Assembly: GCA_003973265.1 (NCBI GenBank)
Contig: QNYZ01000094.1
Span: 1,804 to 65,803, forward strand
Length of the DNA: 64,000 bases
Direction: 5' to 3'
Origin: Deltaproteobacteria bacterium
GTDB taxonomy: Bacteria; Desulfobacterota; Desulfobacteria; Desulfobacterales; QNYZ01
The notes under the pieces were generated by a model that did not search any database, was not told the DNA's origin, and was given only the letters and a program-made list of their open reading frames with translations. Made by a program: the position numbers and the translations under genes. The stretch's first letter is position 1, and each line of letters starts with the position of its first letter. Shown one piece after another: positions 7,877-59,859 of the stretch.

Positions 7877-7889
7877 AGGAACGATGCCG

Positions 7890-36357: not shown

Positions 36358-36780
36358 TTATATATCTTCGGGCGGCTGCCGCTCCACTGTGAGCCGTCCT
36401 GAACAGGCGAGCTCTCCGCCGGATTCAACCCGAAAGGTGCAGGTTAACGGTGTCCGGTTGCCCGGGCAGATAACGACTTCAAGGGGATCGCCGGGCCGGA
36501 TGATCCGCTTGAAGCGGACCCGGCTGACCTGTTTTAATTGAAACCGTTCGTCTTCCGCCTGGCAGATTGCATCTAACACCATGCTTAATTGCGCAATTCC
36601 GGGCAGGATCGGGTTATCAGGAAAATGTCCGGAAAACCAGAAAGAATCGGATTCTACCGAAACCCTCGCATTAATTTCACCCAGGTTATTCTGCCGCAAA
36701 TCCAGAAACCGATACCATTTTCCCCGGTTAAATAAAAGGGGCGGATGCGAATTTTTGGTCATTTTCTCAGATACTCCCAT
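36358..36780 (-). CDS. FabZ/FabA-like hotdog 3-hydroxyacyl-ACP dehydratase (ApeI-like)
   Basis: 140-aa ORF with FSGHFPDNPILPGIAQLS, the FabZ-type catalytic His context. An alternative start at 36762 gives an ATGA overlap with the upstream radical SAM gene stop. Confidence 0.8.
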   Translation of the reverse strand: MGVSEKMTKNSHPPLLFNRGKWYRFLDLRQNNLGEINARVSVESDSFWFSGHFPDNPILPGIAQLSMVLDAICQAEDERFQLKQVSRVRFKRIIRPGDPLEVVICPGNRTPLTCTFRVESGGELACSGRLTVERQPPEDI

Positions 36781-45952: not shown

Positions 45953-46246
45953 GGGGAGGTCCGTGAATGTATAATGTTAATGATTACAGTGGATTTAAAT
46001 AGCATAAATTGGCCATGATTCACAGATGTTTCCTGGTAGCGTTGCGGGATAAAAAAGATAGCAGCGGGGCTGGGCGAAATCGCAGGTTTTATCAGTGGTG
46101 AAGATTGACAGGTGGAGATTGACAAATTCGATTTTTCCGGTCATATCGGGAAAGAAAAATGTGGTTTTTGACATGCGCACGGATGATCATACCCGGATGC
46201 CATCTGAATGTGTTTGGCGGCATTCTTTATTTTTACGGAGGTAGCC

Positions 46247-47584
46247 ATGGACAGCCCGGTTCGACGCCACCATTTAAAGACCCTTACCAAAACCGACAGA
46301 GATGCGCTGCTCAACCGCACCGAGAGCAACCTGGGGCGGTATCTGACATCGGTCGGACCGATCATAGATGCGGTAAAAGAATCCGGAGACGAGGCATTGG
46401 TCAGATTTGCCCGCGATTTTGACCAGGTGGAGCTGACAACCGGTTCGATCCGGGCCCGTCCGGAAGACTTTGACGCCGCGTTTTCTTCGATCAATACCGC
46501 CAACCCGGAACTGGTCGATTCCATCCGCTTTGCCGCGGACAGCATCCGCATGTTTCATCAGGCACAGATGCCCGACCCCATGCGGATGAACGAGGTGCGG
46601 CCCGGGGTGTTTTGCGGCGAGAAAATAGCCCCGATTCCGTCGGTGGCCTGTTATGTTCCCCGGGGCAAGGGGTCGTTTCCCAGCGTGGTATTGATGACGA
46701 CGATCCCCGCCGTGGTGGCCGGTGTCAAAAATGTGTGTATCCTCACCCCGCCCGGACCGGATGGGTCCGTCGATGATGCCACGCTGGTGGCGGCCCGTAT
46801 TGCCGGGGTAGAAACCATTTATAAGTGCGGTGGCGCCCAGGCGGTGGCTGCCGCTGCCTTTGGCACTGAAACCATTCCCAGGGCTGATAAAATCGTCGGG
46901 CCCGGCAGCCCCTGGGTGGTGGCAGCCAAACAGGTGCTGGCCGATAAGATCGACCCCGGCCCGCCGGCCGGGCCCAGCGAGTCGATCGTGTTTGCCGATG
47001 AAACGGCCGATGGAAAGCTGGCGGCCCTGGATCTGATCATTGAATCCGAGCACGGCCCGGATTCTTCGGCGTTTCTGGTGACGCCCAGTGCCGAAGTCGC
47101 CGATGAAGCGCAAAAAGCGATCCCCTCGTATTGGGAATTGCTGGGAGAAACGCGCCGATCCTTTTCACAAACTGTCCTGGGAGGCTCCATCGGCGGGATT
47201 GTCCTGGCCGAAAATAATACCGACTGTATCCGTTTTATCAATGATTACGCTCCCGAGCATCTGATGATTCACAGCCTGGAGCCGTTTAGATACCTGGGAG
47301 ACATTCACCATGCCGGTGAAGTCCTGCTTGGCCGGCATACAGCGATTTCACTGGGTAATTACGTCCTCGGTCCCAATGCCGTTTTGCCGACTTCCGGTGC
47401 AGCGCGTATTCATTCGCCCCTGGGCGTACACGATTTTCTCAAGGCAACCGGGATCGGCTACGTCACGTCCGGCGCCTACGACGAGCTGGCCGCTCATGCC
47501 CACAACCTGGCCGTGTACGAAGGGTTTGACGGGCACGCCCTGGCTGTATCTGAGCTGAGAAAGAAGCTTTTATCCGGCGGATAA
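46247..47584 (+). CDS. Histidinol-dehydrogenase-family protein (HisD paralog with non-canonical active-site residues)
   Basis: The ATG at 46247 is preceded by GGAGG; the ORF track starts at 46208. HisD-family blocks are present: GGAQAVAAAAFGTE, DKIVGPGSPWV, AGPSE, SEHGPDS, APEHL, VLPTSG. Canonical SQAEH reads ESEH, and GDY...NHVLPT reads GNY...NAVLPT. Confidence 0.8.
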   Translation: MDSPVRRHHLKTLTKTDRDALLNRTESNLGRYLTSVGPIIDAVKESGDEALVRFARDFDQVELTTGSIRARPEDFDAAFSSINTANPELVDSIRFAADSIRMFHQAQMPDPMRMNEVRPGVFCGEKIAPIPSVACYVPRGKGSFPSVVLMTTIPAVVAGVKNVCILTPPGPDGSVDDATLVAARIAGVETIYKCGGAQAVAAAAFGTETIPRADKIVGPGSPWVVAAKQVLADKIDPGPPAGPSESIVFADETADGKLAALDLIIESEHGPDSSAFLVTPSAEVADEAQKAIPSYWELLGETRRSFSQTVLGGSIGGIVLAENNTDCIRFINDYAPEHLMIHSLEPFRYLGDIHHAGEVLLGRHTAISLGNYVLGPNAVLPTSGAARIHSPLGVHDFLKATGIGYVTSGAYDELAAHAHNLAVYEGFDGHALAVSELRKKLLSGG

Positions 47585-47725: not shown

Positions 47726-48835
47726 GTGACATCGCCATTACCCGTCGTTGAGCTTCGTGATGTTTCCAAATCATTTGGCAATGTCCGCGCGGTAAAAAAC
47801 GTCAGTTTCACCCTGCCCAGGGGATCGGTATTAACGATTCTCGGCCCCAGTGGCTGCGGGAAAACCACCCTGTTGAGGATGATTGCGGGGTTTGACGCGC
47901 CCACCAGCGGCGAGATCTTTATCCAGGGGCAGCCGGTCTCATCGGTTCCCCCTTATCAACGGTCCATCGGGATGGTCTTTCAGAAACTGGCCCTGTTTCC
48001 CCATATGACGGCCGCGGAAAACATCGCCTATCCCTTGAAAATGCGCCGGTATGACCCGGCCACCATCCCTGGCCGGGTGGAACGGTATCTGCAGATTGTC
48101 CAGCTTTCCGGGATGGGTACACGGCGCATTCATGAGCTTTCCGGCGGTCAGCAGCAGCGGGTGGCCATTGCCCGGGCGCTTTCTTTCAGCCCGGACCTGT
48201 TGCTTCTCGACGAACCGTTGTCGGCGCTGGATAAAAAACTGCGCGAGGAAATGCAGCTGGAATTTCGGCGGATTCAGCAGGAGCTGGCCGTCACCACCAT
48301 TAACGTGACGCATGACCAGCGGGAAGCCCTGGTGATGTCCGATGAAATCATCGTGATGTCGGACGGCGCGGTTCAGCAGGCGGCTGATCCGGTCCGGCTT
48401 TACCGGGAACCGTCCAGCCGGTTTGTGGCCAGCTTTATCGGGCTGACCTCTTTGCTGACCGGCCGGGCAACAAAGATCCAGGCGATGGATGTGGCCATCC
48501 AGGTGGGAAACATGGTTTTGAAAGGCCGGACGGCAGATGAAACCATCCAAAACGGTGCCTGGGTCGAATGTGCCCTTCGTGCCGAACAGGTTCGTATTTT
48601 TCCAGCGGGTAAAGGTTTCGCCGAGTTCGACAATGCCCTGGAAGGGGTGGTTGATCAACAGATATTTGAAGGGGATCGGATGGTCTACCAGGTTCGATGT
48701 CCGGCCCTGGGCGATGCGCCGATCTTTGTCTTTGATCACGATCCGGCCCATCACCAGTTTCACCAGAAAGACGATTCGGTACGTATCGGTTGGAATGCAC
48801 AGGACCTGCTTGTCTATGCGTGTTCTGATGCGTAG
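47726..48835 (+). CDS. ABC transporter ATP-binding protein (PotA/CysA-like, with C-terminal TOBE-like domain)
   Basis: 369-aa ORF with a GTG start. Walker A GPSGCGKTT, signature LSGGQQQR, Walker B LLLLDEP. Confidence 0.92.
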   Translation: MTSPLPVVELRDVSKSFGNVRAVKNVSFTLPRGSVLTILGPSGCGKTTLLRMIAGFDAPTSGEIFIQGQPVSSVPPYQRSIGMVFQKLALFPHMTAAENIAYPLKMRRYDPATIPGRVERYLQIVQLSGMGTRRIHELSGGQQQRVAIARALSFSPDLLLLDEPLSALDKKLREEMQLEFRRIQQELAVTTINVTHDQREALVMSDEIIVMSDGAVQQAADPVRLYREPSSRFVASFIGLTSLLTGRATKIQAMDVAIQVGNMVLKGRTADETIQNGAWVECALRAEQVRIFPAGKGFAEFDNALEGVVDQQIFEGDRMVYQVRCPALGDAPIFVFDHDPAHHQFHQKDDSVRIGWNAQDLLVYACSDA

Positions 48836-48874
48836 GACTGTTTAATGGATTCAATCAGAAAAAGGAGAAGTGGA

Positions 48875-49975
48875 ATGAGAAAGTTTGACAATGTCCCGAA
48901 AATTAACCGGCGCCAGTTTTTAACCGGTACGGCGGCAGTTGTCGGCAGTGCGCTGGTCTGCCCCGGCCTTGTTTTTGCCGATCAGAAAAAACCAAAGGAA
49001 ATAATCGTCCGTGCCTGGGGCGGTGCCTGGGGGGATGCGCTCAAGGCCGGAGTGGCCGACGGGTTCACCGCCGCCACCGGTATCAACGTGCGCATGGATT
49101 TTACCGAAGACAATGAGATCAAACCCAAAATCTGGGCAGCGGTTGATCAGGGACGGATCCCGCCGATTCATGTTAACTGGGACACCACCACCAATGCCAC
49201 CATATCAGCCCTGCGCGGTGTTACCGTTGACCTGAGCGACCTGTCCAACCTGAAAGGCCTGCTGCCGCTGGCCAAACCGATCGGACTGGACGGGTACCCG
49301 CTGGTCAATACCTATGCCTACGTCTATGTCTGCGCGTATCGTCCGGAAGCCTTCCCGGATGGCCCGCCCAAATCGTGGAACGTGCTGATCGATCCCAGGT
49401 TCAAGGGTCGCGTGGCGCTTTATGATGACGGTATCGGATTCAACCCAATCGCGGTGCTCGTGGGCGGTGGAAAACTTGAAGACATTCCCGACCACATGGA
49501 ACCCGGCTACGAGTTTTACCGGAAGCTGAAAAAGAACGAGCCGTTGCTGGGAGAAGATGCCGATTTTACAACCTGGTTCCAGAACGGCGAAATTGACGTG
49601 GCCTGTACAATCAGCGTCAATGCGCGGGCGGCCAAAGAAAAAGGGATCAGCGTCGCCTGGACGGTGCCGGAGGAAGGCTGCAAGGTGGATACCGATGGGT
49701 TGTGGGTGCCCAAGGGGCTGCCGCCCAATGAAGAATACTGGGCCAAACAGTTCGTCAATTTCGCGCTAACCAGGGACGCCCAGAAAAAGTGGTGCAGTAT
49801 GCTCGGGCTGCCGCCGGTCTATCCGGGGATTGAGCCGCCGGCCGACCTGGTAGGCGATATCTCCTACCCGACCAAACCCGAGGATTTCAAAAAACTGATA
49901 CGTATCCCGTCAAAGGTACTTGTCGAAAATCAGCCTAAGTGGTTCGCCAAGTTCAGCGAGATTTTTCAGGGATAG
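48875..49975 (+). CDS. ABC transporter periplasmic substrate-binding protein (family 1, PotD/PotF-like)
   Basis: The ATG at 48875 is preceded by AGGAG; the ORF track starts at 48845. Tat-like signal NRRQFLTGTAAVVGSAL. Size and position fit a solute-binding protein. Confidence 0.8.
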   Translation: MRKFDNVPKINRRQFLTGTAAVVGSALVCPGLVFADQKKPKEIIVRAWGGAWGDALKAGVADGFTAATGINVRMDFTEDNEIKPKIWAAVDQGRIPPIHVNWDTTTNATISALRGVTVDLSDLSNLKGLLPLAKPIGLDGYPLVNTYAYVYVCAYRPEAFPDGPPKSWNVLIDPRFKGRVALYDDGIGFNPIAVLVGGGKLEDIPDHMEPGYEFYRKLKKNEPLLGEDADFTTWFQNGEIDVACTISVNARAAKEKGISVAWTVPEEGCKVDTDGLWVPKGLPPNEEYWAKQFVNFALTRDAQKKWCSMLGLPPVYPGIEPPADLVGDISYPTKPEDFKKLIRIPSKVLVENQPKWFAKFSEIFQG

Positions 49976-49986
49976 CACCTGGGAGC

Positions 49987-50020
49987 GCCCGGCATCGTTT
50001 TTTGGTGCCGGGCCTTTTTT
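49987..50020 (+). terminator. Intrinsic terminator / attenuator hairpin after the binding-protein gene
   Basis: Perfect 8-bp GC-rich stem, GCCCGGCA (49987-49994) with TGCCGGGC (50006-50013), followed by CTTTTTT. Confidence 0.7.
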
Positions 50021-50031
50021 AATGAGACTTT

Positions 50032-50982
50032 ATGTCATCTTCTGATACGCCCTCATTTCAATATCCCCTTTCCTGGCGCATCCTCGACCGTGCCGAGTCG
50101 GTTGCTGGGCTGTGGCCAGGGCGGTGGTCATCCCTGACGGGCTACCTGTTTCTGGTCCCGGCGCTGCTGCTGGTATTTGTGCTGGTCATCGGCCTGGTTT
50201 ATATCTTTGATTACAGCCTGCACGAACTCGACCTTTCCACCTACCGGTTGAAAGATGCCTTCAGCCTCGTCAACTACCAGGCCGCGTTAAAAAGCGTCAC
50301 CTACAGGATAGTGGTGCTGCGGAGCCTGGGCGCATCAGCCATTGTCACTTTGATTACCATGGTACTTGCTTTTCCTTATGCCTATGTGATGGTGAGAACC
50401 CGATCGTCTTTTACCCGCAAGTTTCTGCTGATCAGTCTGTTCCTGCCATTTTTTATCGGCCAGGTTGTTCGCGCATACGGCTGGTTGATCATCCTCGGCA
50501 AAGAAGGGCTTCTCAATACTTTCATCACTTCCCTTGGTCTGCCGCCGGTTAAATTGATATACAACTACCCGGCCGTTATCCTGGGGCTGGTTCAATACAT
50601 GCTGCCCTTTGCTGTGCTGCTGCTTGCCCCGGCCGTGACTTCCATCTCCGAAGATATCGAACTGGCGTCCGAAGGCCTGGGTGCCAACTGGGTTCAGACG
50701 TTTCGACATGTGGTATTGCCCCTGGCCAGGCCGGGCTTGATCGGAGCCGGGGTGGTGGTCTTTACCCTCACGCTGACCGATTTCGCCATGCCGGAAATCC
50801 TCGGTGGCGGTACGACCGACTTTATCGCCAATTCGATCTACGACGGCTTTTTTCAGATTTCCAATCCGGGCCTGGGCGCGGCGCTTTCGATGATTCTTGT
50901 GACCCTGGGAAGTGTGATCGTCACCGTTGTTTTTTTCCTGGCCGGAACCGGTACCCTGGTTTCCACGGAGGGCACGCCATGA
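50032..50982 (+). CDS. ABC transporter permease
   Basis: 316-aa multi-TM ORF of the PotB/PotC-like permease type, in operon context. Confidence 0.85.
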   Translation: MSSSDTPSFQYPLSWRILDRAESVAGLWPGRWSSLTGYLFLVPALLLVFVLVIGLVYIFDYSLHELDLSTYRLKDAFSLVNYQAALKSVTYRIVVLRSLGASAIVTLITMVLAFPYAYVMVRTRSSFTRKFLLISLFLPFFIGQVVRAYGWLIILGKEGLLNTFITSLGLPPVKLIYNYPAVILGLVQYMLPFAVLLLAPAVTSISEDIELASEGLGANWVQTFRHVVLPLARPGLIGAGVVVFTLTLTDFAMPEILGGGTTDFIANSIYDGFFQISNPGLGAALSMILVTLGSVIVTVVFFLAGTGTLVSTEGTP

Positions 50983-51779
50983 CCGGGGCCCGTGGAAAAA
51001 CCATCGTTTTATGGTCCATCGTCTGGTTTAATCTCATCGCGTTGAGTCTGCCGACGATTATTATCCTGGGCGCATCTTTTACTTCCGGCGATATAGTCCG
51101 GTTTCCTCCGGACGGCCTCTCTCTGAAGTGGTATGCCAGACTCTGGCTCCTGGATGATTTCAAAGATGCGTTTTTAAGAACCCTTTACGTTTCCGTCATC
51201 TGCACCATCGTCAGCATCCCCGCCGGGACCCTGGCGGCCCTGGCCCTGACGCGGTACCGGATTCGGTTCAGGACGGCCATCCAGGTTTACCTGCTGCTGC
51301 CGTTCACTATCCCGCTGGTTGTTTCCGGGCTGGGGATGATGATTGTTTTCGGTGAAGTGCGCATCCTGGGGCAGTTATGGCCGGTGGGCATCGGGCTGTG
51401 CTGCATCAACCTTCCCTTTATGATGTGGGCGGTCAGTGCCACGGTAAACGCCCTGGACAACAACCTGGAAAATGCCGCTGCCAATTGCGGTGCCCCTCCT
51501 TTACAGGCCTTTTTAACGGTTACCCTGCCGGCCGTGATGCCGGGCGTTATTACCGGTGCCCTTTTGATGTTTATCCTGGCGTTCAATGAATTTCTTGTCA
51601 GCCTTTTTTTAACGGACGCACGAATTGTCACCCTGCCGGTATCCATTTACAACTCCATCCGCAGTGTGATTACGCCCGATCTGGCGGCGGTCTCCGTGGT
51701 ATATATTGTCATCGCCCTGTTTGCCGTCTGGCTGCTGGACAGGCTGGTGGGGCTGGAATTGTTCTTAAAATCAAAATAG
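50979..51779 (+). CDS. ABC transporter permease
   Basis: 266-aa multi-TM ORF. ATGA overlap with the previous permease gene. Contains the EAA-like loop NNLENAAANCGAPPLQAF. Confidence 0.85.
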   Translation: MTGARGKTIVLWSIVWFNLIALSLPTIIILGASFTSGDIVRFPPDGLSLKWYARLWLLDDFKDAFLRTLYVSVICTIVSIPAGTLAALALTRYRIRFRTAIQVYLLLPFTIPLVVSGLGMMIVFGEVRILGQLWPVGIGLCCINLPFMMWAVSATVNALDNNLENAAANCGAPPLQAFLTVTLPAVMPGVITGALLMFILAFNEFLVSLFLTDARIVTLPVSIYNSIRSVITPDLAAVSVVYIVIALFAVWLLDRLVGLELFLKSK

Positions 51780-51787
51780 CAGGTGAT

Positions 51788-53038
51788 ATGAATAAAATAG
51801 AACTGGTTTTCGGCGATGTCCAGAACAAACAGATCCAGACGTCCAATGATTTCGTCAGTCATATGGTTGAACATATCGCCTGGCGCATGGGGTGTTCTAT
51901 CCATCTTTGCTGGGAAGGTGATGACTGGACGGCACTGGGCCGGATGCTGGGCAGACAGATTCGGTCATTCCCAGCCCTTTCCGATACGGCAGCGGCCCTG
52001 GGCATGATGGATGACGGCAGCTCGGAAGTGCGGTTATCGCCGGATATTTTGGGTGCGGTTGAGATATTTACCGGCACTCAGATTGACAAAGAATGGTTTT
52101 TATCACAGCGATGCGAGCAGCTGGCATCCGGTCATGAACTGGTGCGCTTATTGAAAGGGCTGGCCCGGGGTCTGGGCATGAAGATTGACCTCAAAGTGTG
52201 CAGCTTCGAAGACCCGCATCATACATGGGAAAGTGTTTTTCGCGGCGTTGGTATTGCGTTGAACCGGCTCTTTTCACCGCCGGCTGGTTCGGCTGATTTT
52301 TCTTCTCCGGTAGAGACGGATATTCAATGCGGCGATATTGCGATTGCATCCTGGTCGGGTAACCAGGCTGAAATAATCCGGCATACAGCGGAAACCCGGC
52401 TGGATGTGATGGTTGATTTCACCGGGAACCGGCCGGTTGAATTTCAATATGAAGGGGTTCCCATTGCGCAATATGACGATACTTCCGCATTTGACGGGTT
52501 CCGTGAATTGCTGGAAATATTTTCCGGCACCGCCGGGTTTTCTTTGAAGGTCGGTTTCAGATCAAAAGTGCTCAGTTCAGGTCATGTTCTCCTGGAAGAT
52601 ACAGGGCTGGTCATTGGAAGGGCGCTGCGGGAAATTTTAATGAAACGCATGATGTCCCATGGGATCAATGGCGCCGGAAGCAGTCTTTTGCATCCGATCG
52701 ATTTCAGTCAACAGAAAATCACCGTCGGCGTCAGCGTGGAGGGCCGTAAATTCTGGCGATTTGTGCCGATGAATACCACCATTGACGCCGTTCGAAAAAG
52801 TCTGATAATCGGGCAAACCGTCCTGAACGGTCTGTTTTCCGAAGACCTGGATGATTTCCTGGACGGGTTATCCTGGGGGCTGGGGTGCAGTATTGTCATC
52901 CACATCAAGGAGCTGCCGTCGGCCGAAACAGCCTGGCGCATGGTTTTTGAAAACCTTGGATGGGCAGTGGCCGAGGCCTTTGAAGTCAACCCATATCGCA
53001 AGGGTGTTCCGCCGGGTGTCCGGGCGAATCTAACCTAG
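51788..53038 (+). CDS. Double imidazoleglycerol-phosphate-dehydratase-like (IGPD-fold) protein of unknown function
   Basis: 416-aa ORF, about twice IGPD length. Segments resemble IGPD blocks: FVSHMVEHIAWRMG (compare FLDHMLDQIARHG), EDPHHTWESVFRGVGIAL (compare ENAHHQIEAVFKAFARAL), IRHTAETRLDVMVDFTG (compare RETKETQIKVELNLDG), and SSGHVLLEDTGLVIGRAL (compare DDHHTVEDVGIALGQAL). Confidence 0.55.
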   Translation: MNKIELVFGDVQNKQIQTSNDFVSHMVEHIAWRMGCSIHLCWEGDDWTALGRMLGRQIRSFPALSDTAAALGMMDDGSSEVRLSPDILGAVEIFTGTQIDKEWFLSQRCEQLASGHELVRLLKGLARGLGMKIDLKVCSFEDPHHTWESVFRGVGIALNRLFSPPAGSADFSSPVETDIQCGDIAIASWSGNQAEIIRHTAETRLDVMVDFTGNRPVEFQYEGVPIAQYDDTSAFDGFRELLEIFSGTAGFSLKVGFRSKVLSSGHVLLEDTGLVIGRALREILMKRMMSHGINGAGSSLLHPIDFSQQKITVGVSVEGRKFWRFVPMNTTIDAVRKSLIIGQTVLNGLFSEDLDDFLDGLSWGLGCSIVIHIKELPSAETAWRMVFENLGWAVAEAFEVNPYRKGVPPGVRANLT

Positions 53039-53072: not shown

Positions 53073-53852
53073 ATGGAACCGAAAATCGTTTGCCCTGATT
53101 TCAACCTGAAAGGGAAAAAGGCACTGGTGACCGGCGCGTCGCGGGGGATCGGCCGGGCCCTTGCGCTGGGGCTGGTCCATGCGGGTGCGAGGGTCGCGTT
53201 AACGGCGAGAAGAGAAGATGCGCTGATGCAGACGGCCAGGGAGGTGGAAGCAATCGGCGGCACTGCCGTTGTTCAACGCATGGACGTTACCGATACGGAC
53301 GCTATCCGGCAGGGAATCGGGGCTTGTGCCCGGAAGATGGATGGCATCGATATCCTCATTAACAACGCCGGATGCGAAAACGTCCGGGATTCGCTGGAAG
53401 TGACACCCGACCTCTGGGATACCATCGTCGATACCAATCTGAAAGGGGCGTTTTTCTGTGCCCAGGCCGCCGCAAAGGTCATGGAAAAACCGGACGGCGG
53501 CACCATCGTCAATCTCTGCTCGCTGACGTCCAGTGTCGGTGTGCCGACAGCCGTGGCCTACACCAGCAGCAAGAGTGGTCTTTTAGGTATGACCCGGGCC
53601 CTGGCCGCCGAATGGGCCGCCAGGAAAATTCGGGTCAACGCCATTGCGCCTGGCTATTTTCACACGGAAATGACCGATGTGTTTTTTCAGGACGAGGCCT
53701 GGGCGCAGGAAATGAAATCAAAAATTCCCATGAATCGCTTTGGTAACGTACAGGATCTGGTCGGTACAACGGTTTTTCTATGCAGCGCGGCATCCGATTA
53801 CATCACAGGCCAGATGATCACCATCGATGGGGGGTATCTTTCAACGCTGTAG
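53073..53852 (+). CDS. SDR-family oxidoreductase (gluconate-5-dehydrogenase / FabG-like)
   Basis: 259-aa ORF with TGASRGIGRALA, NNAG and YTSSK (YxxxK). Confidence 0.88.
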   Translation: MEPKIVCPDFNLKGKKALVTGASRGIGRALALGLVHAGARVALTARREDALMQTAREVEAIGGTAVVQRMDVTDTDAIRQGIGACARKMDGIDILINNAGCENVRDSLEVTPDLWDTIVDTNLKGAFFCAQAAAKVMEKPDGGTIVNLCSLTSSVGVPTAVAYTSSKSGLLGMTRALAAEWAARKIRVNAIAPGYFHTEMTDVFFQDEAWAQEMKSKIPMNRFGNVQDLVGTTVFLCSAASDYITGQMITIDGGYLSTL

Positions 53853-54098: not shown

Positions 54099-54175
54099 GG
54101 TGGGTGTAGCTCAGTTGGTAGAGCTCCTGGTTGTGGCCCAGGTGGCCGTGGGTTCAAGTCCCATCACTCACCCCA
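54099..54175 (+). tRNA. tRNA-His (anticodon GTG) with encoded G-1
   Basis: G GTGGGTG TA GCTC AGTTGGTA GAGC T CCTGG TTGTGGC CCAGG TGGCC GTGGG TTCAAGT CCCAT CACTCAC C CCA. The extra 5-prime G opposite C73 is the His identity element. Confidence 0.9.
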
Positions 54176-54188
54176 TTTTTTATTCATT

Positions 54189-54265
<77 letters not shown>

Positions 54266-54311
54266 GTTCACTTCGTGTTTTTCCAGTCGGCATGTTCATT
54301 TTTAAACGCCC

Positions 54312-55148
54312 ATGACAAAAACCCTCAGCCTGGGATATTCCACCTGCCCCAACGACACGTTTATTTTTCACGCCATGACCCATGGCCGGGTGGGCGATGA
54401 CGCCTTTGAGTTCCGGCCGGTGCTGGAAGATGTGGAAACACTGAACCAGAAAGCCCGGTTCCGGACCCTGGATGTGACCAAACTCTCCTTTGCCGCCATC
54501 GGGCACCTCACGGAAAGTTATGGTCTGCTTCGAAGCGGTGCGGCGTTGGGGCGCGGTTGCGGGCCGTTGATCGTGGCGCGGTCGGGAAAGGATTTGTTGC
54601 ATCTTGATCGATCGGCCGTGGCGGTTCCCGGTGAGTGGACAACGGCGAGTCTGCTGCTGGGTTTGTATCTCTCCCGCCCACCGGCGGTAACCGCCATGCC
54701 CTTTGACCGGATCATGCCGGCCGTGGCAGGTGGTGAGGTGGACTATGGCGTAATTATCCACGAAGGTCGGTTTACATTCGGGTCTTATGGCCTTACGGAT
54801 CTGCTGGATCTGGGGCAATGGTGGGAAGACGAAACCGGATTGCCGATTCCGTTGGGCGGCATTGCCATTCGCCGGGATCTGGGGCCATCGGTTGCTGCTG
54901 TCGTGGAGAAAATAATTCAAAAGAGCGTTCGATATGCGTTCGACCATCCCGAGGCGTCCCGGAATTATGTCAACGCCCATGCCCGGGAGATGGAAGACAG
55001 GGTTGTCGATCAGCATATCGGGCTGTATGTCAATGAGGATTCAGAACGTATCGGGTTTCAGGGGCAGGCGGCGATTGAGATGCTGTTTAAAAAGGCCCGG
55101 CAGGCGGGAATGATGCCGGAAAGCAGGGCAGACCTGTTTGCCTGCTGA
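54312..55148 (+). CDS. mqnD: 1,4-dihydroxy-6-naphthoate synthase (futalosine pathway)
   Basis: 278-aa ORF. LGYSTCPNDTFIFHAMTHG...DVETLN...DVTKLS is the MqnD N-terminal signature. Confidence 0.85.
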   Translation: MTKTLSLGYSTCPNDTFIFHAMTHGRVGDDAFEFRPVLEDVETLNQKARFRTLDVTKLSFAAIGHLTESYGLLRSGAALGRGCGPLIVARSGKDLLHLDRSAVAVPGEWTTASLLLGLYLSRPPAVTAMPFDRIMPAVAGGEVDYGVIIHEGRFTFGSYGLTDLLDLGQWWEDETGLPIPLGGIAIRRDLGPSVAAVVEKIIQKSVRYAFDHPEASRNYVNAHAREMEDRVVDQHIGLYVNEDSERIGFQGQAAIEMLFKKARQAGMMPESRADLFAC

Positions 55149-55181: not shown

Positions 55182-56078
55182 TTACCCGAAAAACAACAGC
55201 GGCGCCTCATGTTCAATCAGTTTGTATGTATACAGACCGTTAAAAAATGTTTTAAGGGCCTGCCGTTTTTTTTCATCCAGATCGTATTCCATGGCCTGAA
55301 AATAGGCGTTGACCTGATCCCCGGGCAGGTTGAGCTTTCCGGTACCGGTGGTTATAATCCGGTCAAGATTCGCCTGGCCTTCTTTTTGTGACTGCCGGAA
55401 GAGGTCGATGACCCGGGCCACCCGGCTTTCATGGGCATCGGCAAATGTTTTTCGAACGACCCACACTGCAAAGACAATGGGCAGCCCGGAGAGCGCAAAC
55501 CAAACCTCGCCCAGGTCAATTAAATACCGATATTTTTGATTCCACCCGCCTGTCAGGGCACTGTCTCCAATAACCAGCACGGCATCCGGATCATCGTCAA
55601 AGGGCGATATTCCGCCAATACTGCCGGTTCTCATTTGCGGTTGAATCCCCTTGATGGCAAAGATCAGTTTCAACAGCAATACCGCCGTACCCGATTCATC
55701 GGTCAAGATAACCTTTCGACCGTCCAGCTCCTCGATGGGGTAACGGCTGGCAAGCAATACACTCATCACCGGGCCATGGCAGGAAATGGAAAGATCGGGC
55801 AGAATCAGCCATGGATCGGGATCGCGCGGGCCGGTATGATGAACATAGGCTCCGCTGGATACCGGGCTGATGTCCAGCTCTGCTTCGGCCACCATGCGGT
55901 TGAGGGTCGACGGGGCGGCCGGGATGATCTTGAACCAGGATGGCGCCAGACCGTTTTCCAGGCCGAAATAAATGGGATCGACGTTGATATAGCGAATCCG
56001 GCCGACCCGGATGGAATCCGTTGACGGGGCAGCCTTCTGGCCGGGGGAGATTTCCGGCGGTCTATTTCTATTCGACAT
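55182..56078 (-). CDS. mqnA: Chorismate dehydratase (futalosine pathway)
   Basis: 298-aa ORF. VGRIRYINVDPIYFGL...PSTLNRMVAEAELDISPVSS fits the MqnA periplasmic-binding-like fold. Confidence 0.8.
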   Translation of the reverse strand: MSNRNRPPEISPGQKAAPSTDSIRVGRIRYINVDPIYFGLENGLAPSWFKIIPAAPSTLNRMVAEAELDISPVSSGAYVHHTGPRDPDPWLILPDLSISCHGPVMSVLLASRYPIEELDGRKVILTDESGTAVLLLKLIFAIKGIQPQMRTGSIGGISPFDDDPDAVLVIGDSALTGGWNQKYRYLIDLGEVWFALSGLPIVFAVWVVRKTFADAHESRVARVIDLFRQSQKEGQANLDRIITTGTGKLNLPGDQVNAYFQAMEYDLDEKKRQALKTFFNGLYTYKLIEHEAPLLFFG

Positions 56079-56080
56079 GG

Positions 56081-57301
56081 TTAGTTGACCCTTTCAATGG
56101 GATGGTCCGCGGGAGCATGTACGATCTGTTCGATGAGCATTTTCGGCGAGGCGGCGGACAGCGGCAGGTAGAGGCAGCCTGTCCGATAGCCCGGAGCGAT
56201 CCGGCCGCAGGTGTTCTCCATGCCCAGCGCGCGTGCGGCGTTGGTCGTGGCCATGGCGAAAATTGACCGGAGCGACAGGTCCGGAAAGGAGCGGGCGGTA
56301 AAAGCCATTTCGTCAAACATGCTGAGTGAATCACAACTGGCCAGGCTGTCTGTCCCCATGCAAATATTCAGGCCGGCCGCATCCATCCGGTTCAGGTCGG
56401 GGAGCTGCCGGTGGAGTCGTAAATTTGATCGGGGGCAGACAGCCACTGAAGTACCCCGGCGGGCCAGGATTTGAAAATCGTCGGCATCGGCCTGGAGCAC
56501 ATGAACAGCCACTGTTCTTTCATCAAGGATATTGAGCCTGTCCAGATAGTGGACAGGGCTTCTGGCGGACAGGGGCCAGGTGGAGAAATCGATTTTGCGT
56601 GTCTTCAGCAGATCTGCCCAGGGGCCTGTTCCCGTACGGATAAAATCGCTCTCGTCGCCGGATTCGGCCAGGTGAATGGAGAAAGGGCGACTGAGGCGGT
56701 TGGCCGCCTGTTTCAGCGCGATCAGCAGGTCCGGGCCTGTGGTGTGAGGTGCGTGGCCGGCCAGAGATTCCCGGTTTGCGGGCAATTCCGGAAGCGATTC
56801 TTCGTCTGATCGGTTGCCGATATATTCCCGGAACCAGACCCCGTGCAGCCGGGAATCTAAAAATGGCTGGCGGGATATCCCCAGCGTGGAGATTTCCCCC
56901 ACGGCGCCACAACCTGAACGGATCAGTTCGCCGATTCCGTCTGAAATACCGCCGTCGAGTGCCGTTCGGCTCAGGTTTTCCCGCAATTGAATCAGGCGGC
57001 GCACCCAGTCGGCAAAGCCACGGCCGGCGGACAGTTTCCCTTTCAGTGCACCGAGTTCCAGATGGGTGTGGACATTGATCAGGGCCGGGAGTATGACACC
57101 GGGGCCATGATCCACCACGGGATCCCGGCCGGTTTGATGACCGGTTTTGACTGCCGTTATCCGGCCGGCACTGATATGGATCATCGCATTTTGGAGAACG
57201 GTTTTCGGATCCTGAATGATCCAGCCGGCCCGGTGCCAGCGACCCGAAGATGTGTCCGGGGCTTGAATCACGACGCGGAATCCACGGGCCGGTAAAAACA
57301 A
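56081..57301 (-). CDS. Amidohydrolase-superfamily deaminase (candidate aminodeoxyfutalosine deaminase)
   Basis: 406-aa ORF. PALINVHTHLE is the HxH metal motif of COG0402-type amidohydrolases. It sits between mqnC and mqnA. Confidence 0.65.
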   Translation of the reverse strand: MFLPARGFRVVIQAPDTSSGRWHRAGWIIQDPKTVLQNAMIHISAGRITAVKTGHQTGRDPVVDHGPGVILPALINVHTHLELGALKGKLSAGRGFADWVRRLIQLRENLSRTALDGGISDGIGELIRSGCGAVGEISTLGISRQPFLDSRLHGVWFREYIGNRSDEESLPELPANRESLAGHAPHTTGPDLLIALKQAANRLSRPFSIHLAESGDESDFIRTGTGPWADLLKTRKIDFSTWPLSARSPVHYLDRLNILDERTVAVHVLQADADDFQILARRGTSVAVCPRSNLRLHRQLPDLNRMDAAGLNICMGTDSLASCDSLSMFDEMAFTARSFPDLSLRSIFAMATTNAARALGMENTCGRIAPGYRTGCLYLPLSAASPKMLIEQIVHAPADHPIERVN

Positions 57302-58335
57302 TCGCGCTGTTGCGCCATGTATCCGGCATCTTCGATCAAGCGGATCATCTCATCTTTGGGCAGACGGAAATGAATGCCGGCCGCCGCCACGACATTTTCC
57401 TCAATCATGGTGCTGCCCAGATCGTTGGCGCCGAAGGAGAGGGCCACCTGGGCAATTTTTGCGCCCTGGGTCACCCAGGACGCCTGGATATTGGGAATAT
57501 TATCCAGGACGATCCGGCTGACGGCCAGCATACGTAGATATTCGCATGATGTGGCCGGCGAAACGTCGATCTGTGTGTTGTGGGGCTGGAAAGTCCAGGG
57601 GATAAAGGCGGTAAATCCACCGGTCTCATCCTGGAGATCGCGGATTTTCATCAGGTGGTCGATCCGGTCTTCAACGGTTTCCACATGACCGAACATCATC
57701 GTGGCCGTGGTTCGTAATCCTGATTTATGGGCCGTCCGCATGACATCCAGCCATTGAGCCGTCGTGCATTTACGCGGTGATATTTGCCGGCGTATCCGGT
57801 CGACGAGAATTTCGGCACCACCACCGGGGATAGATCCCAATCCCGCTGATTTGAGCCGCTCGATGACCACGGGCAGGGGCAGGTTTTCTTTTGCGGCGAG
57901 GTAGTGAATCTCCGGTGGAGAGAACCCGTGGATATGGATATCAAATGCCTTGATGGATCGGAGCAGGGATTCATAATCAGCGAGCACCATGTCCGGATGC
58001 ATTCCGCCCTGAAGGAGGATCTGGGTGCCGCCCAGATCGAGGGTCTCTTCGATCTTCTGGGCCAGGTCCGCATCGTTCAGCCGGTAGGCCTCCGGGTGAT
58101 CCGGGGGACGGTAAAATGCGCAGAACCGGCAGCCGGTCACGCAGATATTGGAAAAATTGATATTCCGGTCGACGATATATGTGACCCCCGGTTCGGGGTG
58201 CAGACGCCGACGGATGCGATTGGCGAGCCCACCCAGCGTTAACAGGGGCGCGTCGGCCAGAAGGATCCGCGCCTCCCTGCGTCCGATCCGTCGGGCGGTA
58301 TCGATCTTTTCGATAATTGGGCTTAACCGGTTCAT
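57268..58335 (-). CDS. mqnC: Radical SAM cyclic dehypoxanthinyl futalosine synthase
   Basis: 355-aa ORF. YIVDRNINFSNICVTGCRFCAFYR (CxxxCxxC) is CofH/MqnC/MqnE-family layout. MqnC rather than MqnE is judged from the VDRNIN context as I remember it. Confidence 0.7.
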   Translation of the reverse strand: MNRLSPIIEKIDTARRIGRREARILLADAPLLTLGGLANRIRRRLHPEPGVTYIVDRNINFSNICVTGCRFCAFYRPPDHPEAYRLNDADLAQKIEETLDLGGTQILLQGGMHPDMVLADYESLLRSIKAFDIHIHGFSPPEIHYLAAKENLPLPVVIERLKSAGLGSIPGGGAEILVDRIRRQISPRKCTTAQWLDVMRTAHKSGLRTTATMMFGHVETVEDRIDHLMKIRDLQDETGGFTAFIPWTFQPHNTQIDVSPATSCEYLRMLAVSRIVLDNIPNIQASWVTQGAKIAQVALSFGANDLGSTMIEENVVAAAGIHFRLPKDEMIRLIEDAGYMAQQRDCFYRPVDSAS

Positions 58336-59438
58336 GGAAGAGGCGCACTTTCCTTTACCGGATGATAAAAAGAATCACGTTGCACCGGTGTAAAACCGGC
58401 GGTCGTGATCATCCGTGTCATGTCGGACCGGGTCAGGCCCCGGGCCGATCTGGCACCGGCCATGTGGGTGATTTTTTCTTCAATGATCGTTCCGTCCAGA
58501 TCATCGGCTCCGAATGCCAGGGCTACCTGGGCCAGCTTCTCTCCGATCATTACCCAGTAGGCTTTGATATGATCGATGTTGTCCAGAAGCAGTCGGGCTA
58601 CGGCGATGTTTTTAAGATCATCATAGGCCGTGGTGGCCGGAAGGTGGGGTAGCCGGGTATGCGCCGAGTGAAAGGCCAGGGGGATAAAGGCGGAAAACCC
58701 GCCTGTTTCATCCTGCAATTCCCTCAGGGTGAGGAGATGATGTACCCGTTCGGCCAGGGTTTCGATATGGCCGTAAAGCATGGTGGCATTGGTAATAATC
58801 CCGCTTTTGTGGGCGATTTTCATCACGTCGAGCCAGCGCTCGTGATCAATCTTGCGGTGAAACAGTTTTTGATGGACGCGGCGGCTCATCACCTCGGCCC
58901 CGCCGCCGGGCATCATTTCCAGACCGGCGGTTTTCAGCTCGGCTATGGTTTCTTCGTGTGTGCGGCCGGCAATGGCGGCCAGATTATCGATTTCAACAGC
59001 CGTGAACGCCTTGACCGTGACGCCGGGCCGGATAGCCTTGATCGTCTTGATCATATCCAGGTAATAATCAAACGGCAGGGCCGGGTTGATCCCGCCCACG
59101 ACGTGCAGCTCCCGGACCGGCTCGTCAATGCGGGCGGTCAGTTGTTTTTCAATATCGGCAATAGAGAAGGTGTACGCCCCGTCCTCACCGGCATCCCGGG
59201 CAAAGGCGCAGAACTGGCATCGGTTGGCACAGACATTGGTGTAATTCAGGTGCTGATTGTAGACCCAGTAGGCCCTGTCGCCATGACGTCGGCGCCGGTC
59301 TGTATCCGCCAGGTGTCCCAGGCCGATTAAATCGGTCGTTTCGTACAGGGCCATCCCGTCGTCAAAATTCAGTCGCTTTTCGCGCTCAATTTTGCGAAAG
59401 ATCGCTTCCAGCCGTTTATCCGTAAAATAGGACGTCAT
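58332..59438 (-). CDS. mqnE: Radical SAM aminofutalosine synthase
   Basis: The ORF track extends to 59564; I prefer the Met at 59438 (MTSYFTDKRLEAIFRKI...). NQHLNYTNVCANRCQFCAFAR. ATGA overlap with the mqnC start at 58332-58335. Confidence 0.7.
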   Translation of the reverse strand: MTSYFTDKRLEAIFRKIEREKRLNFDDGMALYETTDLIGLGHLADTDRRRRHGDRAYWVYNQHLNYTNVCANRCQFCAFARDAGEDGAYTFSIADIEKQLTARIDEPVRELHVVGGINPALPFDYYLDMIKTIKAIRPGVTVKAFTAVEIDNLAAIAGRTHEETIAELKTAGLEMMPGGGAEVMSRRVHQKLFHRKIDHERWLDVMKIAHKSGIITNATMLYGHIETLAERVHHLLTLRELQDETGGFSAFIPLAFHSAHTRLPHLPATTAYDDLKNIAVARLLLDNIDHIKAYWVMIGEKLAQVALAFGADDLDGTIIEEKITHMAGARSARGLTRSDMTRMITTAGFTPVQRDSFYHPVKESAPLP

Positions 59439-59859
59439 TTTCGATCCCGATCTTTTAATAAATGTCGCGCCTGCCGGTATAAAAGGCAGAAACAACAATT
59501 TTATACCAAAATGGATGTCGGGACCTTTATAGGATATTCGACCTTCGGGTGCAAGAAATAACACGCAACATCATGCCAGAGTGCCGCCATCGGACATTTA
59601 TTATCGTTTCTATGCAATATGGCGATAGTGATGCGGCAACAGTCGCCAGATCACAACAAAAACGCTTGCCTTAACGCAATAACTTTGATATTTTAAATGA
59701 CATCAATCTTTTGGTTTAAACTCAACCTAATGAATGCAATTCATCAGATCGAAGTGCGTGTCGGCTTTATCGGATAGAAATCCTTTAAAACAGGGCTGGA
59801 AAGCCGGGAAATATGCTTTCGGCCATAGGCAATTATTCACTTAGAAGGAGGATGTTTCC

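What the first reader, a model, noticed from the sequence alone, without database searches (positions are those of the whole stretch)
51788..53038. Double-length IGPD-fold protein with partly degenerate metal sites, encoded at the end of an ABC importer operon
- **Normal IGPD.** Imidazoleglycerol-phosphate dehydratase is about 200 aa, is itself an internal duplication, and binds two Mn ions through repeated His/Glu motifs.
- **This ORF.** It is 416 aa and appears to contain two IGPD-like units.
- **Conserved blocks.** FVSHMVEH, EDPHHTWES, RHTAETRLDV, GHVLLEDTG.
- **Lost His pairs.** DDW replaces DDHH in unit 1, and SAETAW replaces ENAHH in unit 2.
- **Context.** It follows two permease genes with an 8-nt gap and precedes an SDR.
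- **Status.** I know of no characterised enzyme with this architecture. It might be a dehydratase for an imported polyol-phosphate-like compound, or a non-catalytic scaffold.
Basis: partly seen in the sequence, partly recalled or inferred. Interest (0 to 1): 0.66.

Follow-up and report, generated by a model that had tools for sequence, protein, structure and literature searches.

The report
Tandem-duplicated histidine-pathway dehydratase (double IGPD)
This gene encodes two fused copies of the histidine-pathway enzyme imidazoleglycerol-phosphate dehydratase that have each lost a different half of the catalytic residues, and it belongs to a widespread, unnamed family that sits in the hisB position of histidine operons in many bacteria and some archaea.

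Summary

It is not a sequencing artefact. Relatives occur in 294 species genomes. AlphaFold gives one rigid body (pLDDT 93.8, pTM 0.93) that matches only IGPD structures.

Across 86 family members the canonical catalytic residues are split between the units:
- **Unit 1** keeps H47, H169, H170, E173 and K177 (as Arg).
- **Unit 2** keeps E21, H73, E77, R121 and the C loop.

So each chain carries one set of catalytic residues.

The family's usual neighbours are hisD and hisC, and in complete his operons it fills the hisB slot. Most members carry an N-terminal HAD phosphatase, probably histidinol-phosphate phosphatase. Both units descend from a divergent single-length IGPD lineage that also occupies hisB slots.

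The window's version lies in a hisD-ABC importer-double IGPD-SDR module conserved in a Desulfobacterota subclade. It shows no active-site divergence, so it is most likely a working HisB. The role of the importer is unexplained.

Verdict: a new variant of a known enzyme, of moderate interest.

The parts
51788..53038 (+). Double-IGPD gene (416 aa plus stop), a tandem-duplicated variant HisB
   Evidence: ORF and translation. Pfam IGPD in two stretches. AlphaFold pLDDT 93.8, pTM 0.93. Foldseek matches only IGPD structures.
51788..52282 (+). Unit 1 (aa 1-165). It keeps H25 (canonical H47), H144/H145/E148 (H169/H170/E173), R152 (K177), R33 (at the H55 position) and D75 (D108). It has lost the E21 strand, H73/H74/E77, R99, R121, H145 and the C loop.
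   Evidence: Alignment to canonical and variant IGPDs. Residue counts over 86 family members. hhalign of unit 1 against the single-length variant, E = 5e-32.
52283..52357 (+). Variable linker (aa 166-190), including an extra beta-hairpin at aa 176-189
   Evidence: Lowest pLDDT blocks (79-88) and the DSSP strand assignments. Poorly conserved in alignment A1.
52358..53035 (+). Unit 2 (aa 191-416). It keeps E202 (E21), H266 (H73), E270 (E77), D271, D305 (D108), R320 (R121), D356 at the H145 position (EDLDDF motif) and a C-loop-like tail NPYRKGVPPGV(K/R)ANL. It has lost H47, H74 (now V267), R99 (now G295) and H169/H170/E173.
   Evidence: hhalign of unit 2 against the single-length variant, E = 3e-41.
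46208..47584 (+). hisD (histidinol dehydrogenase), first gene of the same-strand string
   Evidence: Pfam Histidinol_dh 439 bits. TIGR00069 424 bits against a cut-off of 243.8. Its orthologue (68-81% identity) lies in the same module in 8 related loci.
47726..48835 (+). ABC transporter ATPase of the PotA type, with a TOBE_2 domain
48845..49975 (+). Periplasmic solute-binding protein (SBP_bac_8) with a TAT signal, in the PotD / opine / GABA-binder family
   Evidence: PDB hits to PotD, agropine and mannopine binders and a GABA binder, E between 1e-9 and 1e-5.
49987..50013 (+). GC-rich hairpin followed by a T-run, between the binding-protein gene and the permease genes
   Evidence: Terminator-like site with 11 pairs, 8 of them G-C. 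Function not tested.
50032..51779 (+). Two ABC permease genes (PotB-like 50032-50982 and PotC-like 50979-51779)
53073..53852 (+). SDR oxidoreductase, last gene of the module
   Evidence: Orthologues at 60-76% identity lie in all 8 related hisD-containing ABC-module loci (L003-L007, L009, L026, L041), either before the ABC genes or after the double IGPD.

Best explanation
**What it is.** The ORF encodes a tandem-duplicated imidazoleglycerol-phosphate dehydratase. It is a variant HisB that carries out step 6 of histidine biosynthesis, IGP to imidazole-acetol phosphate.

**Origin.** A divergent single-length IGPD was duplicated and fused. That ancestor had H74 replaced by Val, K177 by Arg, and no R99. 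The two copies then lost complementary halves of the catalytic apparatus.

**How the residues are split.**
- Unit 1 supplies His25, His144, His145 and Glu148, plus the phosphate-binding Arg33 and Arg152.
- Unit 2 supplies His266, Glu270 and Asp356, the general acid/base Glu202, Arg320 and the mobile C loop.

**Consequence.** One 416-aa chain therefore builds one binuclear-metal active site at a unit 1/unit 2 interface. A canonical homo-oligomer would build two sites from the same mass.

**Family context.** In most relatives an N-terminal HAD-IA phosphatase is fused on and probably supplies step 8, histidinol-phosphate phosphatase.

**In this window.** The gene is expressed with hisD in a hisD-ABC importer-double IGPD-SDR module. 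The HAD domain has been lost.

**Status of each step.**
- Shown: the fold, the complementary residue pattern, the family distribution and the his-operon context.
- Inferred: the enzyme activity, the composite-site geometry, the oligomeric state and the role of the HAD domain.
For: **Fold**
- Pfam and NCBIfam hit both halves.
- The AlphaFold model is one rigid body (pTM 0.93). Only IGPD structures match it (29 hits at E < 1e-3, target TM 0.7-0.82).

**Complementary retention in 86 sequences**
- Unit 1: H47 85/86; H169, H170, E173 and Arg at the K177 position 86/86.
- Unit 2: E21, H73, E77 and R121 86/86; Asp at the H145 position 85/86; K201 82/86.
- Residue roles are taken from Bisson 2015, PMC4509728.

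**Genomic context**
- Of 83 loci, hisD is on the same strand in 58 and hisC in 39, and is adjacent in 26 of those 39.
- Complete operons have the protein in the hisB slot with no other IGPD. One example is Patescibacteria L032: yerC-hisG-hisC-hisD-x-B*-IMPase-hisH-hisA-hisF-apt-hisIE. Others are L038, L048, L072, L061 and L073.
- A dedicated canonical-IGPD HMM finds a second intact IGPD within 10 kb in only 1 of 84 loci.
- L018 holds a 43-aa relic of a canonical hisB next to B*-hisD.
- L020 encodes a HisC-HAD-B* triple fusion of 991 aa.

**Phosphatase pattern**
- An IMPase-like gene accompanies standalone versions in 7 his operons and none of the fused ones.
- A separate HAD gene follows B* in L073.

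**Ancestry**
- Both units are closer to the single-length variant (hhalign E = 5e-32 and 3e-41) than to canonical IGPD (4e-14 and 2e-24) or to each other (3e-10).
- That variant itself sits in hisB slots of his operons in metagenomes.

**The window's subclade**
- No position is conserved differently from the rest of the family at 90%.
- hisD lies in the same string.
- P0005, at 68% identity and in the same ABC context, still carries a decayed HAD remnant.
Against: - **No direct proof of activity.** No enzyme assay or genetics exists for any member.
- **Genomes not checked.** I could not scan whole genomes, so a canonical hisB elsewhere in these genomes is not excluded.
- **Co-occurrence with canonical IGPD.** In L053 a fully canonical IGPD, fused to hisC, sits directly upstream of a standalone double IGPD, so the two can co-occur.
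- **Incomplete metal site.** H74, a Mn1 ligand, and R99 are absent from both units.
- **The E21 inconsistency.** In the canonical enzyme E21 comes from the same chain as E173. Here the E21 equivalent is in unit 2 and the E173 equivalent is in unit 1. A simple mapping of unit 1 to chain A and unit 2 to chain A' therefore does not place it, and I had no model coordinates to resolve this.
- **ABC linkage.** In Desulfosarcina ovata (L001) the gene is linked to the ABC transporter but not to hisD.
- **Below naming thresholds.** All NCBIfam HisB models score far below their cut-offs (50 against 231 bits).
Confidence: 0.7

Rival explanations
1. A neofunctionalised dehydratase. In the Desulfobacterota subclade the double IGPD, together with the SDR and possibly hisD, would process a small amine or imidazole compound brought in by the PotABCD-like importer. 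This would be a salvage or catabolic module rather than de novo histidine synthesis.
For: - The seven-gene module hisD-SDR-ABC(4)-B* is conserved in 9 loci. Its hisD orthologues share 68-81% identity and its SDR orthologues 60-76%.
- In D. ovata the ABC genes and B* stay together without hisD.
- This subclade has lost the HAD phosphatase, and P0005 shows a decaying remnant.
- It carries a clade-specific 6-aa insertion in unit 2.
- The binding protein resembles polyamine, opine and GABA binders.
Against: - Every catalytic, metal-binding and phosphate-binding residue is unchanged. No position is differently conserved at 90%, and only four peripheral ones at 80%.
- hisD scores as a bona fide HisD.
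- The module has no kinase to make a phosphorylated substrate.
- The closest relatives lie in his operons.
Confidence: 0.15
2. A catalytically dead pseudoenzyme that assembles with, or regulates, a canonical IGPD. This would resemble HisZ, the HisRS paralogue that partners HisG.
For: - Half of the canonical ligands are missing from each unit.
- In L053 it sits beside a canonical IGPD.
Against: - One complete set of catalytic residues is invariant across 86 sequences, which is not the pattern of a dead enzyme.
- Complete his operons in CPR, Bdellovibrionota and Woesearchaeota contain no other IGPD.
- A canonical hisB relic in L018 suggests replacement rather than partnership.
Confidence: 0.06
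3. An assembly or sequencing artefact that merged two adjacent hisB genes.
For: None beyond the doubled length.
Against: - The same continuous ORF occurs in 294 species genomes, including closed chromosomes: Thioploca ingrica, D. ovata, Ca. Electronema halotolerans and Actinoplanes.
- The two units are only distantly alike (hhalign E = 3e-10).
- They are predicted to pack as one rigid body.
Confidence: 0.01

Closest known systems
Canonical IGPD / HisB (EC 4.2.1.19), for example A. thaliana IGPD2 (4MU0), M. tuberculosis HisB (4GQU) and P. furiosus IGPD (5DNL)
   Same: - Same fold in each unit (Foldseek target TM 0.7-0.82).
- Same HHxxE motif, E21, H47, H73, E77, R121 and a C-terminal loop.
- Same hisB position in his operons for the family.
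   Different: - Twice the length, with the catalytic residues split between two fused, diverged copies.
- H74 and R99 are absent.
- The H145 position holds Asp, and the K177 and H55 positions hold Arg.
- Scores are far below every NCBIfam HisB cut-off.
- Expected to have half as many active sites per fold.
Single-length variant IGPD lineage, uncharacterised (P0204-P0230, alignment A3); found in Peregrinibacteria, Woesearchaeota, Clostridia MAGs and soil and sediment metagenomes
   Same: - Shares the derived features LxHV(I/V)xED, DPHHxWExxFR, the AWR motif, a C-terminal RKGxxxGVKG and the loss of R99.
- Closest profile match to both units.
- Also sits in the hisB slot.
   Different: - About 215 aa, with all retained catalytic residues in one chain.
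- Not duplicated.
- Also unnamed by NCBIfam (80-130 bits against cut-offs of 189 or more).
Bifunctional HisB of E. coli and Bacteroidetes (histidinol-phosphatase fused to IGPD, NF003937)
   Same: Most family members are likewise an N-terminal HAD phosphatase fused to an IGPD module.
   Different: - The HAD domain is subfamily IA (PF13419, TIGR01509, beta-PGM-like), not, from general knowledge not tested here, the HisB-N type.
- The IGPD part is doubled.
- The window's protein has no HAD domain at all.
Gene elongation in hisA/hisF and hisB (Fani and co-workers, PMC7284861)
   Same: The same evolutionary process of tandem duplication and fusion. IGPD itself is already an internal duplication.
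   Different: - This would be a second, later round of elongation in hisB, followed by complementary loss of residues.
- It is not described in that review.

Membership tests
IGPD (Pfam PF00475) | Significant match to the family profile, and the IGPD fold | tested here: met
   56.3 bits against a cut-off of 27, in two stretches. The AlphaFold model matches only IGPD structures.
HisB equivalogs (NCBIfam NF002106-NF002116, NF003937) | Score above the curated equivalog cut-off | tested here: not met
   Best score 50.1 bits against a cut-off of 231. For comparison, the canonical domain in L053 scores 251 bits.
IGPD / HisB enzyme | Eight metal ligands: H47, H74, H169 and E173 for Mn1; H73, E77, H145 and H170 for Mn2 | tested here: inconclusive
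   Six of the eight are present once per chain: H25, H144, H145 and E148 in unit 1, and H266 and E270 in unit 2. Asp356 stands at the H145 position. H74 is Val in unit 2 and absent from unit 1. Whether these residues converge in 3D could not be checked, because no coordinates were available.
IGPD / HisB enzyme | PROSITE-type signatures DxHHxxE and GxNxHHxxExxFK (patterns recalled from memory, not checked here) | tested here: not met
   The first signature appears only as SSGHVLLED in unit 2, with a single His. The second appears as FEDPHHTWESVFR in unit 1, with K replaced by R. Neither unit has both.
IGPD / HisB enzyme | Catalytic E21, the phosphate-binding residues (Q51, H55, R99, K177, R121, S199, K201) and the C loop | tested here: inconclusive
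   E202, R33, R152, R320 and a conserved C-terminal loop with K/R412 are present. R99 is absent from both units, and the S199 position holds Gly.
IGPD / HisB enzyme | Gene in a histidine operon in the hisB position, with no other IGPD | tested here: met
   Met for the family. For the window itself only hisD lies in the same string, and the rest of the genome could not be examined.
IGPD / HisB enzyme | Mn-dependent dehydration of IGP to imidazole-acetol phosphate | not testable with these tools
   Needs complementation or an enzyme assay.
Bifunctional HolPase-IGPD HisB | N-terminal HAD phosphatase domain | tested here: not met
   The window protein starts at unit 1, 8 nt after the permease gene. 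Relatives do carry a HAD-IA domain with an intact DMDG motif.

The most novel reading that the evidence does not exclude
The conserved hisD-SDR-PotABCD-like importer-double IGPD module of this Desulfobacterota subclade is a dedicated salvage route. It would import an environmental imidazole or amino-alcohol compound and convert it to histidine, with the tandem IGPD retuned for that route after shedding its phosphatase domain.
Probability: 0.12. Interest if true: 0.7.

Novelty: new variant of a known kind. Interest (0 to 1): 0.55.

Why it matters
- **Annotation gaps.** The protein is labelled 'hypothetical protein' or 'HAD family phosphatase' in NCBI records. Pathway tools would therefore probably call hisB, and often the phosphatase step, missing in cable bacteria, Beggiatoa, Thioploca, Thiomargarita, Magnetococcales, several CPR and DPANN lineages and some actinomycetes. 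Recognising the family would close those gaps.
- **Evolution.** It is a clear natural case of a second round of gene elongation followed by complementary loss of active-site residues, in an enzyme that normally works as a 24-mer with sites shared between chains.
- **Enzymology.** It predicts half-of-sites stoichiometry and a Mn1 site lacking the H74 ligand. This bears on IGPD mechanism and on inhibitors aimed at this herbicide and antimicrobial target.
- **Phosphatase type.** The fused HAD-IA domain is a candidate new type of histidinol-phosphate phosphatase.

Tried and rejected
- **Merged-gene artefact.** Rejected, given 294 genomes and the rigid AlphaFold model.
- **Regulatory RNA in the operon.** Rfam at gathering threshold finds only four tRNAs in the window, and no His leader or T-box.
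- **tRNA-His as a functional link.** The tRNA-His gene just downstream (54100-54175) is not conserved in 10 related loci.
- **SDR as a general partner of variant IGPDs.** SDR genes next to single-length variants in soil contigs are only 32-36% identical to the window SDR. That is generic similarity, not orthology.
- **Functional divergence of the ABC-linked subclade.** No differently conserved positions at 90%.
- **Other his genes or a second IGPD in the window.** None found.
- **Locating D. ovata's hisD.** I searched with the window's HisD, intending to inspect that complete genome's his genes. It was not among the 120 listed hits.
- **Measuring the composite site.** The structure tool returns no coordinates and none are in /data.
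- **L080 as a hisD fusion.** My first guess was that the 1194-aa ORF in L080 is a hisD fusion. The HMM did not support this, and the extension is probably an over-long ORF call.
- **Literature.** No paper on a double IGPD was found.

Full report
**1. The observation**

ORF 51788-53038 (+) encodes 416 aa. A good Shine-Dalgarno sequence precedes it, and it starts 8 nt after the second permease gene.

Both halves are IGPD-like:
- Pfam IGPD scores 56.3 bits (cut-off 27) in two stretches.
- NCBIfam HisB models hit aa 12-160 and aa 193-408 separately, but far below their naming cut-offs.
- PDB IGPDs are the only sequence hits.

An AlphaFold2 model built on 86 relatives is very confident (pLDDT 93.8, pTM 0.93). 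The two units are therefore predicted to pack as one rigid body. Foldseek against the PDB returns 29 hits at E < 1e-3. All are IGPDs, and each covers one unit (target TM 0.7-0.82).

**2. A real and widespread family**

- The protein database holds 468 clusters of relatives.
- One-genome-per-species scanning finds relatives in 294 species. These include Desulfobacterales and Desulfobulbales (with cable bacteria), Beggiatoaceae (Thioploca, Thiomargarita, Marithrix), Chromatiaceae and Magnetococcales. They also include several Alphaproteobacteria, Bdellovibrionota, Patescibacteria/CPR, Woesearchaeota and actinomycetes such as Actinoplanes and Pseudonocardiales.
- At 50% clustering the family is compact, with 66 representatives at E < 1e-30.
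- Most members are about 640 aa, because an N-terminal HAD-IA phosphatase with intact motifs is fused on. The 416-aa standalone form in the window is the minority.
- NCBI calls these proteins 'hypothetical protein' or 'HAD family phosphatase'. JGI calls some of them HisB.

**3. Anatomy: complementary degeneration**

Residue roles come from the A. thaliana IGPD2 structures (Bisson 2015, PMC4509728):
- Mn1 is bound by H47, H74, H169 and E173.
- Mn2 is bound by H73, E77, H145 and H170.
- The catalytic residues are E21 and E173.
- Phosphate is bound by Q51, H55, R99, K177, R121, S199 and K201, with an essential C loop.

I mapped both units onto these positions and counted residues in 86 family members.

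| Canonical feature | Unit 1 | Unit 2 |
|---|---|---|
| E21 | strand absent | E202, 86/86 |
| H47 | H25, 85/86 | lost |
| H55 position | Arg33, 86/86 | lost |
| H73 | lost | H266, 86/86 |
| H74 | lost | Val267, 84/86 |
| E77 | lost | E270, 86/86 |
| R99 | lost | Gly295 |
| R121 | lost | R320, 86/86 |
| H145 position | lost | Asp356, 85/86 |
| H169, H170, E173 | H144, H145, E148, 86/86 | lost |
| K177 position | Arg152, 86/86 | lost |
| C loop (K201 position) | absent | present, Lys at K201 in 82/86 (Arg412 in the window protein) |

Each chain thus holds exactly one copy of nearly every catalytic element, split between the two units. This is the signature of subfunctionalisation after duplication, not of decay.

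**4. What the neighbours say**

I clustered ORFs from 83 loci and named the clusters with NCBIfam and Pfam.
- The commonest neighbours are hisD (58 loci, always on the same strand) and hisC (39 loci, adjacent in 26).
- hisG, hisH, hisA, hisF, hisIE and hisS also recur.
- In complete operons the double IGPD sits where hisB belongs and is the only IGPD. One example is Patescibacteria L032: yerC-hisG-hisC-hisD-x-B*-IMPase-hisH-hisA-hisF-apt-hisIE. L038, L048, L072, L061, L068 and Woesearchaeota L073 are similar.
- Where the protein lacks the HAD domain, an IMPase-family gene is present in 7 operons, and in none of the fused loci. This gene resembles the HisN type of histidinol-phosphate phosphatase. 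In L073 a separate HAD gene follows directly.
- Thiomargarita L020 encodes a single 991-aa HisC-HAD-double IGPD polypeptide. That joins pathway steps 7, 8 and 6 in one chain.
- A dedicated canonical-IGPD HMM finds, within 10 kb of 84 family loci, only two other hits. One is an intact canonical IGPD, fused to hisC, in L053. The other is a 43-aa C-terminal relic of a canonical hisB beside B*-hisD in L018. The relic suggests displacement of the canonical gene. L053 shows that the two forms can coexist.

**5. Origin**

The nearest single-length relatives are not ordinary IGPDs. They are a divergent lineage of about 215 aa with these features:
- LxHV(I/V)xED, so H74 is already Val.
- DPHHxWExxFR, so K177 is already Arg.
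- An AWR motif and a C-terminal RKGxxxGVKG.
- No R99.

Profile-profile scores place both units closer to this lineage than to anything else:

| Comparison | hhalign E-value |
|---|---|
| Unit 1 vs single-length variant | 5e-32 |
| Unit 2 vs single-length variant | 3e-41 |
| Unit 1 vs canonical IGPD | 4e-14 |
| Unit 2 vs canonical IGPD | 2e-24 |
| Unit 1 vs unit 2 | 3e-10 |

In 80 metagenome loci the single-length variant also occupies the hisB slot. hisD is beside it in 48 loci, and full hisG-hisC-hisD-variant-hisH-hisAF-hisIE strings occur. It too falls below all NCBIfam HisB cut-offs and is mostly unnamed.

**6. The window's own context**

The window holds a same-strand string of seven genes:
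- hisD (46208-47584)
- PotA-like ATPase
- PotD-like binding protein
- two permeases
- the double IGPD
- an SDR

Two tRNA genes follow.

- The same module recurs in 8 other Desulfobacterales and Desulfobulbales genomes. The SDR gene lies either before the ABC genes or after the double IGPD. Orthologue identities are 68-81% for hisD and 60-76% for the SDR.
- In D. ovata the ABC genes and the double IGPD occur without hisD.
- These standalone proteins descend from HAD fusions. P0005 is 68% identical and sits in the same ABC context. It retains a HAD remnant whose nucleophile Asp is replaced (HMDG) and whose cap is deleted.
- Comparing 46 ABC-type sequences with 40 others finds no position conserved differently at 90%. 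At 80% there are only four peripheral substitutions and one 6-aa insertion. The chemistry and substrate are therefore most likely unchanged.
- The binding protein belongs to the polyamine, opine and GABA group. What it imports, and why it is kept between hisD and this gene, I cannot explain.

**7. Mechanism, and what is not settled**

The best-supported reading is that this is a working IGPD in which unit 1 and unit 2 together form one binuclear-metal site per chain.

In the canonical enzyme, chain A gives E21, Q51, H55, E173 and K177, and a neighbouring chain A' contributes other metal ligands. The assignment of individual ligands to A or A' beyond these labels rests on my recollection of Glynn 2005. 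On that reading, unit 1 looks like the A face and unit 2 like the A' face.

Two points do not fit neatly:
- The E21 equivalent lies in unit 2, not unit 1.
- Other double-length relatives (P0164, P0168, P0169) split the residues differently.

I had no coordinates to resolve this. The geometry of the site, the oligomer and the metal stoichiometry are therefore predictions.

**8. Comparison and novelty**

- It works like IGPD/HisB and belongs to the IGPD superfamily.
- It fails the strict sequence definitions: both signature motifs in one unit, all eight ligands, and the equivalog cut-offs.
- It has an architecture that I did not find described in the literature searches.

I rate it a new variant of a known kind. 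It matters mainly for annotating histidine biosynthesis in many uncultured and ecologically important lineages. It is also a clean example of duplication followed by complementary loss in a multi-chain active site.

Noticed in passing
window 54100-54175 and 54189-54265 (+): tRNA-His(GTG) and tRNA-Arg(TCG) lie directly downstream of the hisD...SDR string. The ORFs at 54180-55016 (-) and 54312-55148 (+) overlap the tRNA-Arg gene (54189-54265), have no family hits and are probably spurious.
   Followed up: yes
window 49987-50013 (+): A strong GC-rich hairpin with a T-run lies between the binding-protein gene and the permease genes. It may attenuate transcription within the operon, as seen in many ABC operons.
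   Followed up: no
window 1388-9641 (-), 36759-40310 (-), 43352-44614 (+): PUFA-synthase-like genes: a 2161-aa KS-AT-ACP-KR-DH protein, a PfaD-like enoyl reductase and a KS/CLF-like protein. Two B12-binding radical SAM genes lie nearby.
   Followed up: no
window 55182-59564 (-): A futalosine-route menaquinone cluster: an MqnA-like gene, an amidohydrolase and two CofH/MqnC-type radical SAM genes.
   Followed up: no
L018 4476-4634: A 43-aa in-frame remnant of the C-terminus of a canonical IGPD (NAHHIAETVFKAF...PSTKGSL). It lies about 340 bp after hisD in a [HAD-double IGPD]-hisD locus and looks like a decayed, displaced hisB.
   Followed up: partly
L053 1479-4454: A hisC gene fused to a fully canonical IGPD (251 bits on NF002111) is immediately followed by a standalone double IGPD. 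This is the only locus where both forms are intact side by side.
   Followed up: partly
L020 3855-6830: A 991-aa single ORF combines HisC, a HAD domain and the double IGPD (Thiomargarita MAG).
   Followed up: partly
L123, L126, L128, L136: hisD ORFs of 651-670 aa appear to carry a fused single-length variant IGPD.
   Followed up: partly
L163 3100-3560 (protein P0005): A degenerate HAD remnant lies in front of an ABC-linked double IGPD. It reads HMDG instead of DMDG and the cap domain is deleted. The scaffold has a run of N just upstream.
   Followed up: yes
proteins P0164, P0168, P0169 (394-449 aa) and P0181, P0192 (358-360 aa): Other double-length derivatives of the variant IGPD exist. P0181 and P0192 split the residues like the window protein. 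In P0164, P0168 and P0169, unit 1 keeps E21, H73, E77, R121 and HHxxE, while unit 2 keeps H47 and the C loop. This suggests independent duplications.
   Followed up: partly
L069 7813-13639 (Actinoplanes): The his region reads hisD'-[HAD-double IGPD]-hisC-hisD. The two hisD copies are divergent: the first is 31% identical to the window HisD and the second 48%.
   Followed up: no
L138 5114-13113 and similar soil contigs (L135, L140, L142): The string is hisC, single-length variant IGPD and an SDR. A histidine/phenylalanine ammonia-lyase-like gene (judged from its ASG motif by eye), an ABC ATPase and hisD then follow on the same strand. This is an odd mix of biosynthetic and catabolic-looking genes.
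   Followed up: no
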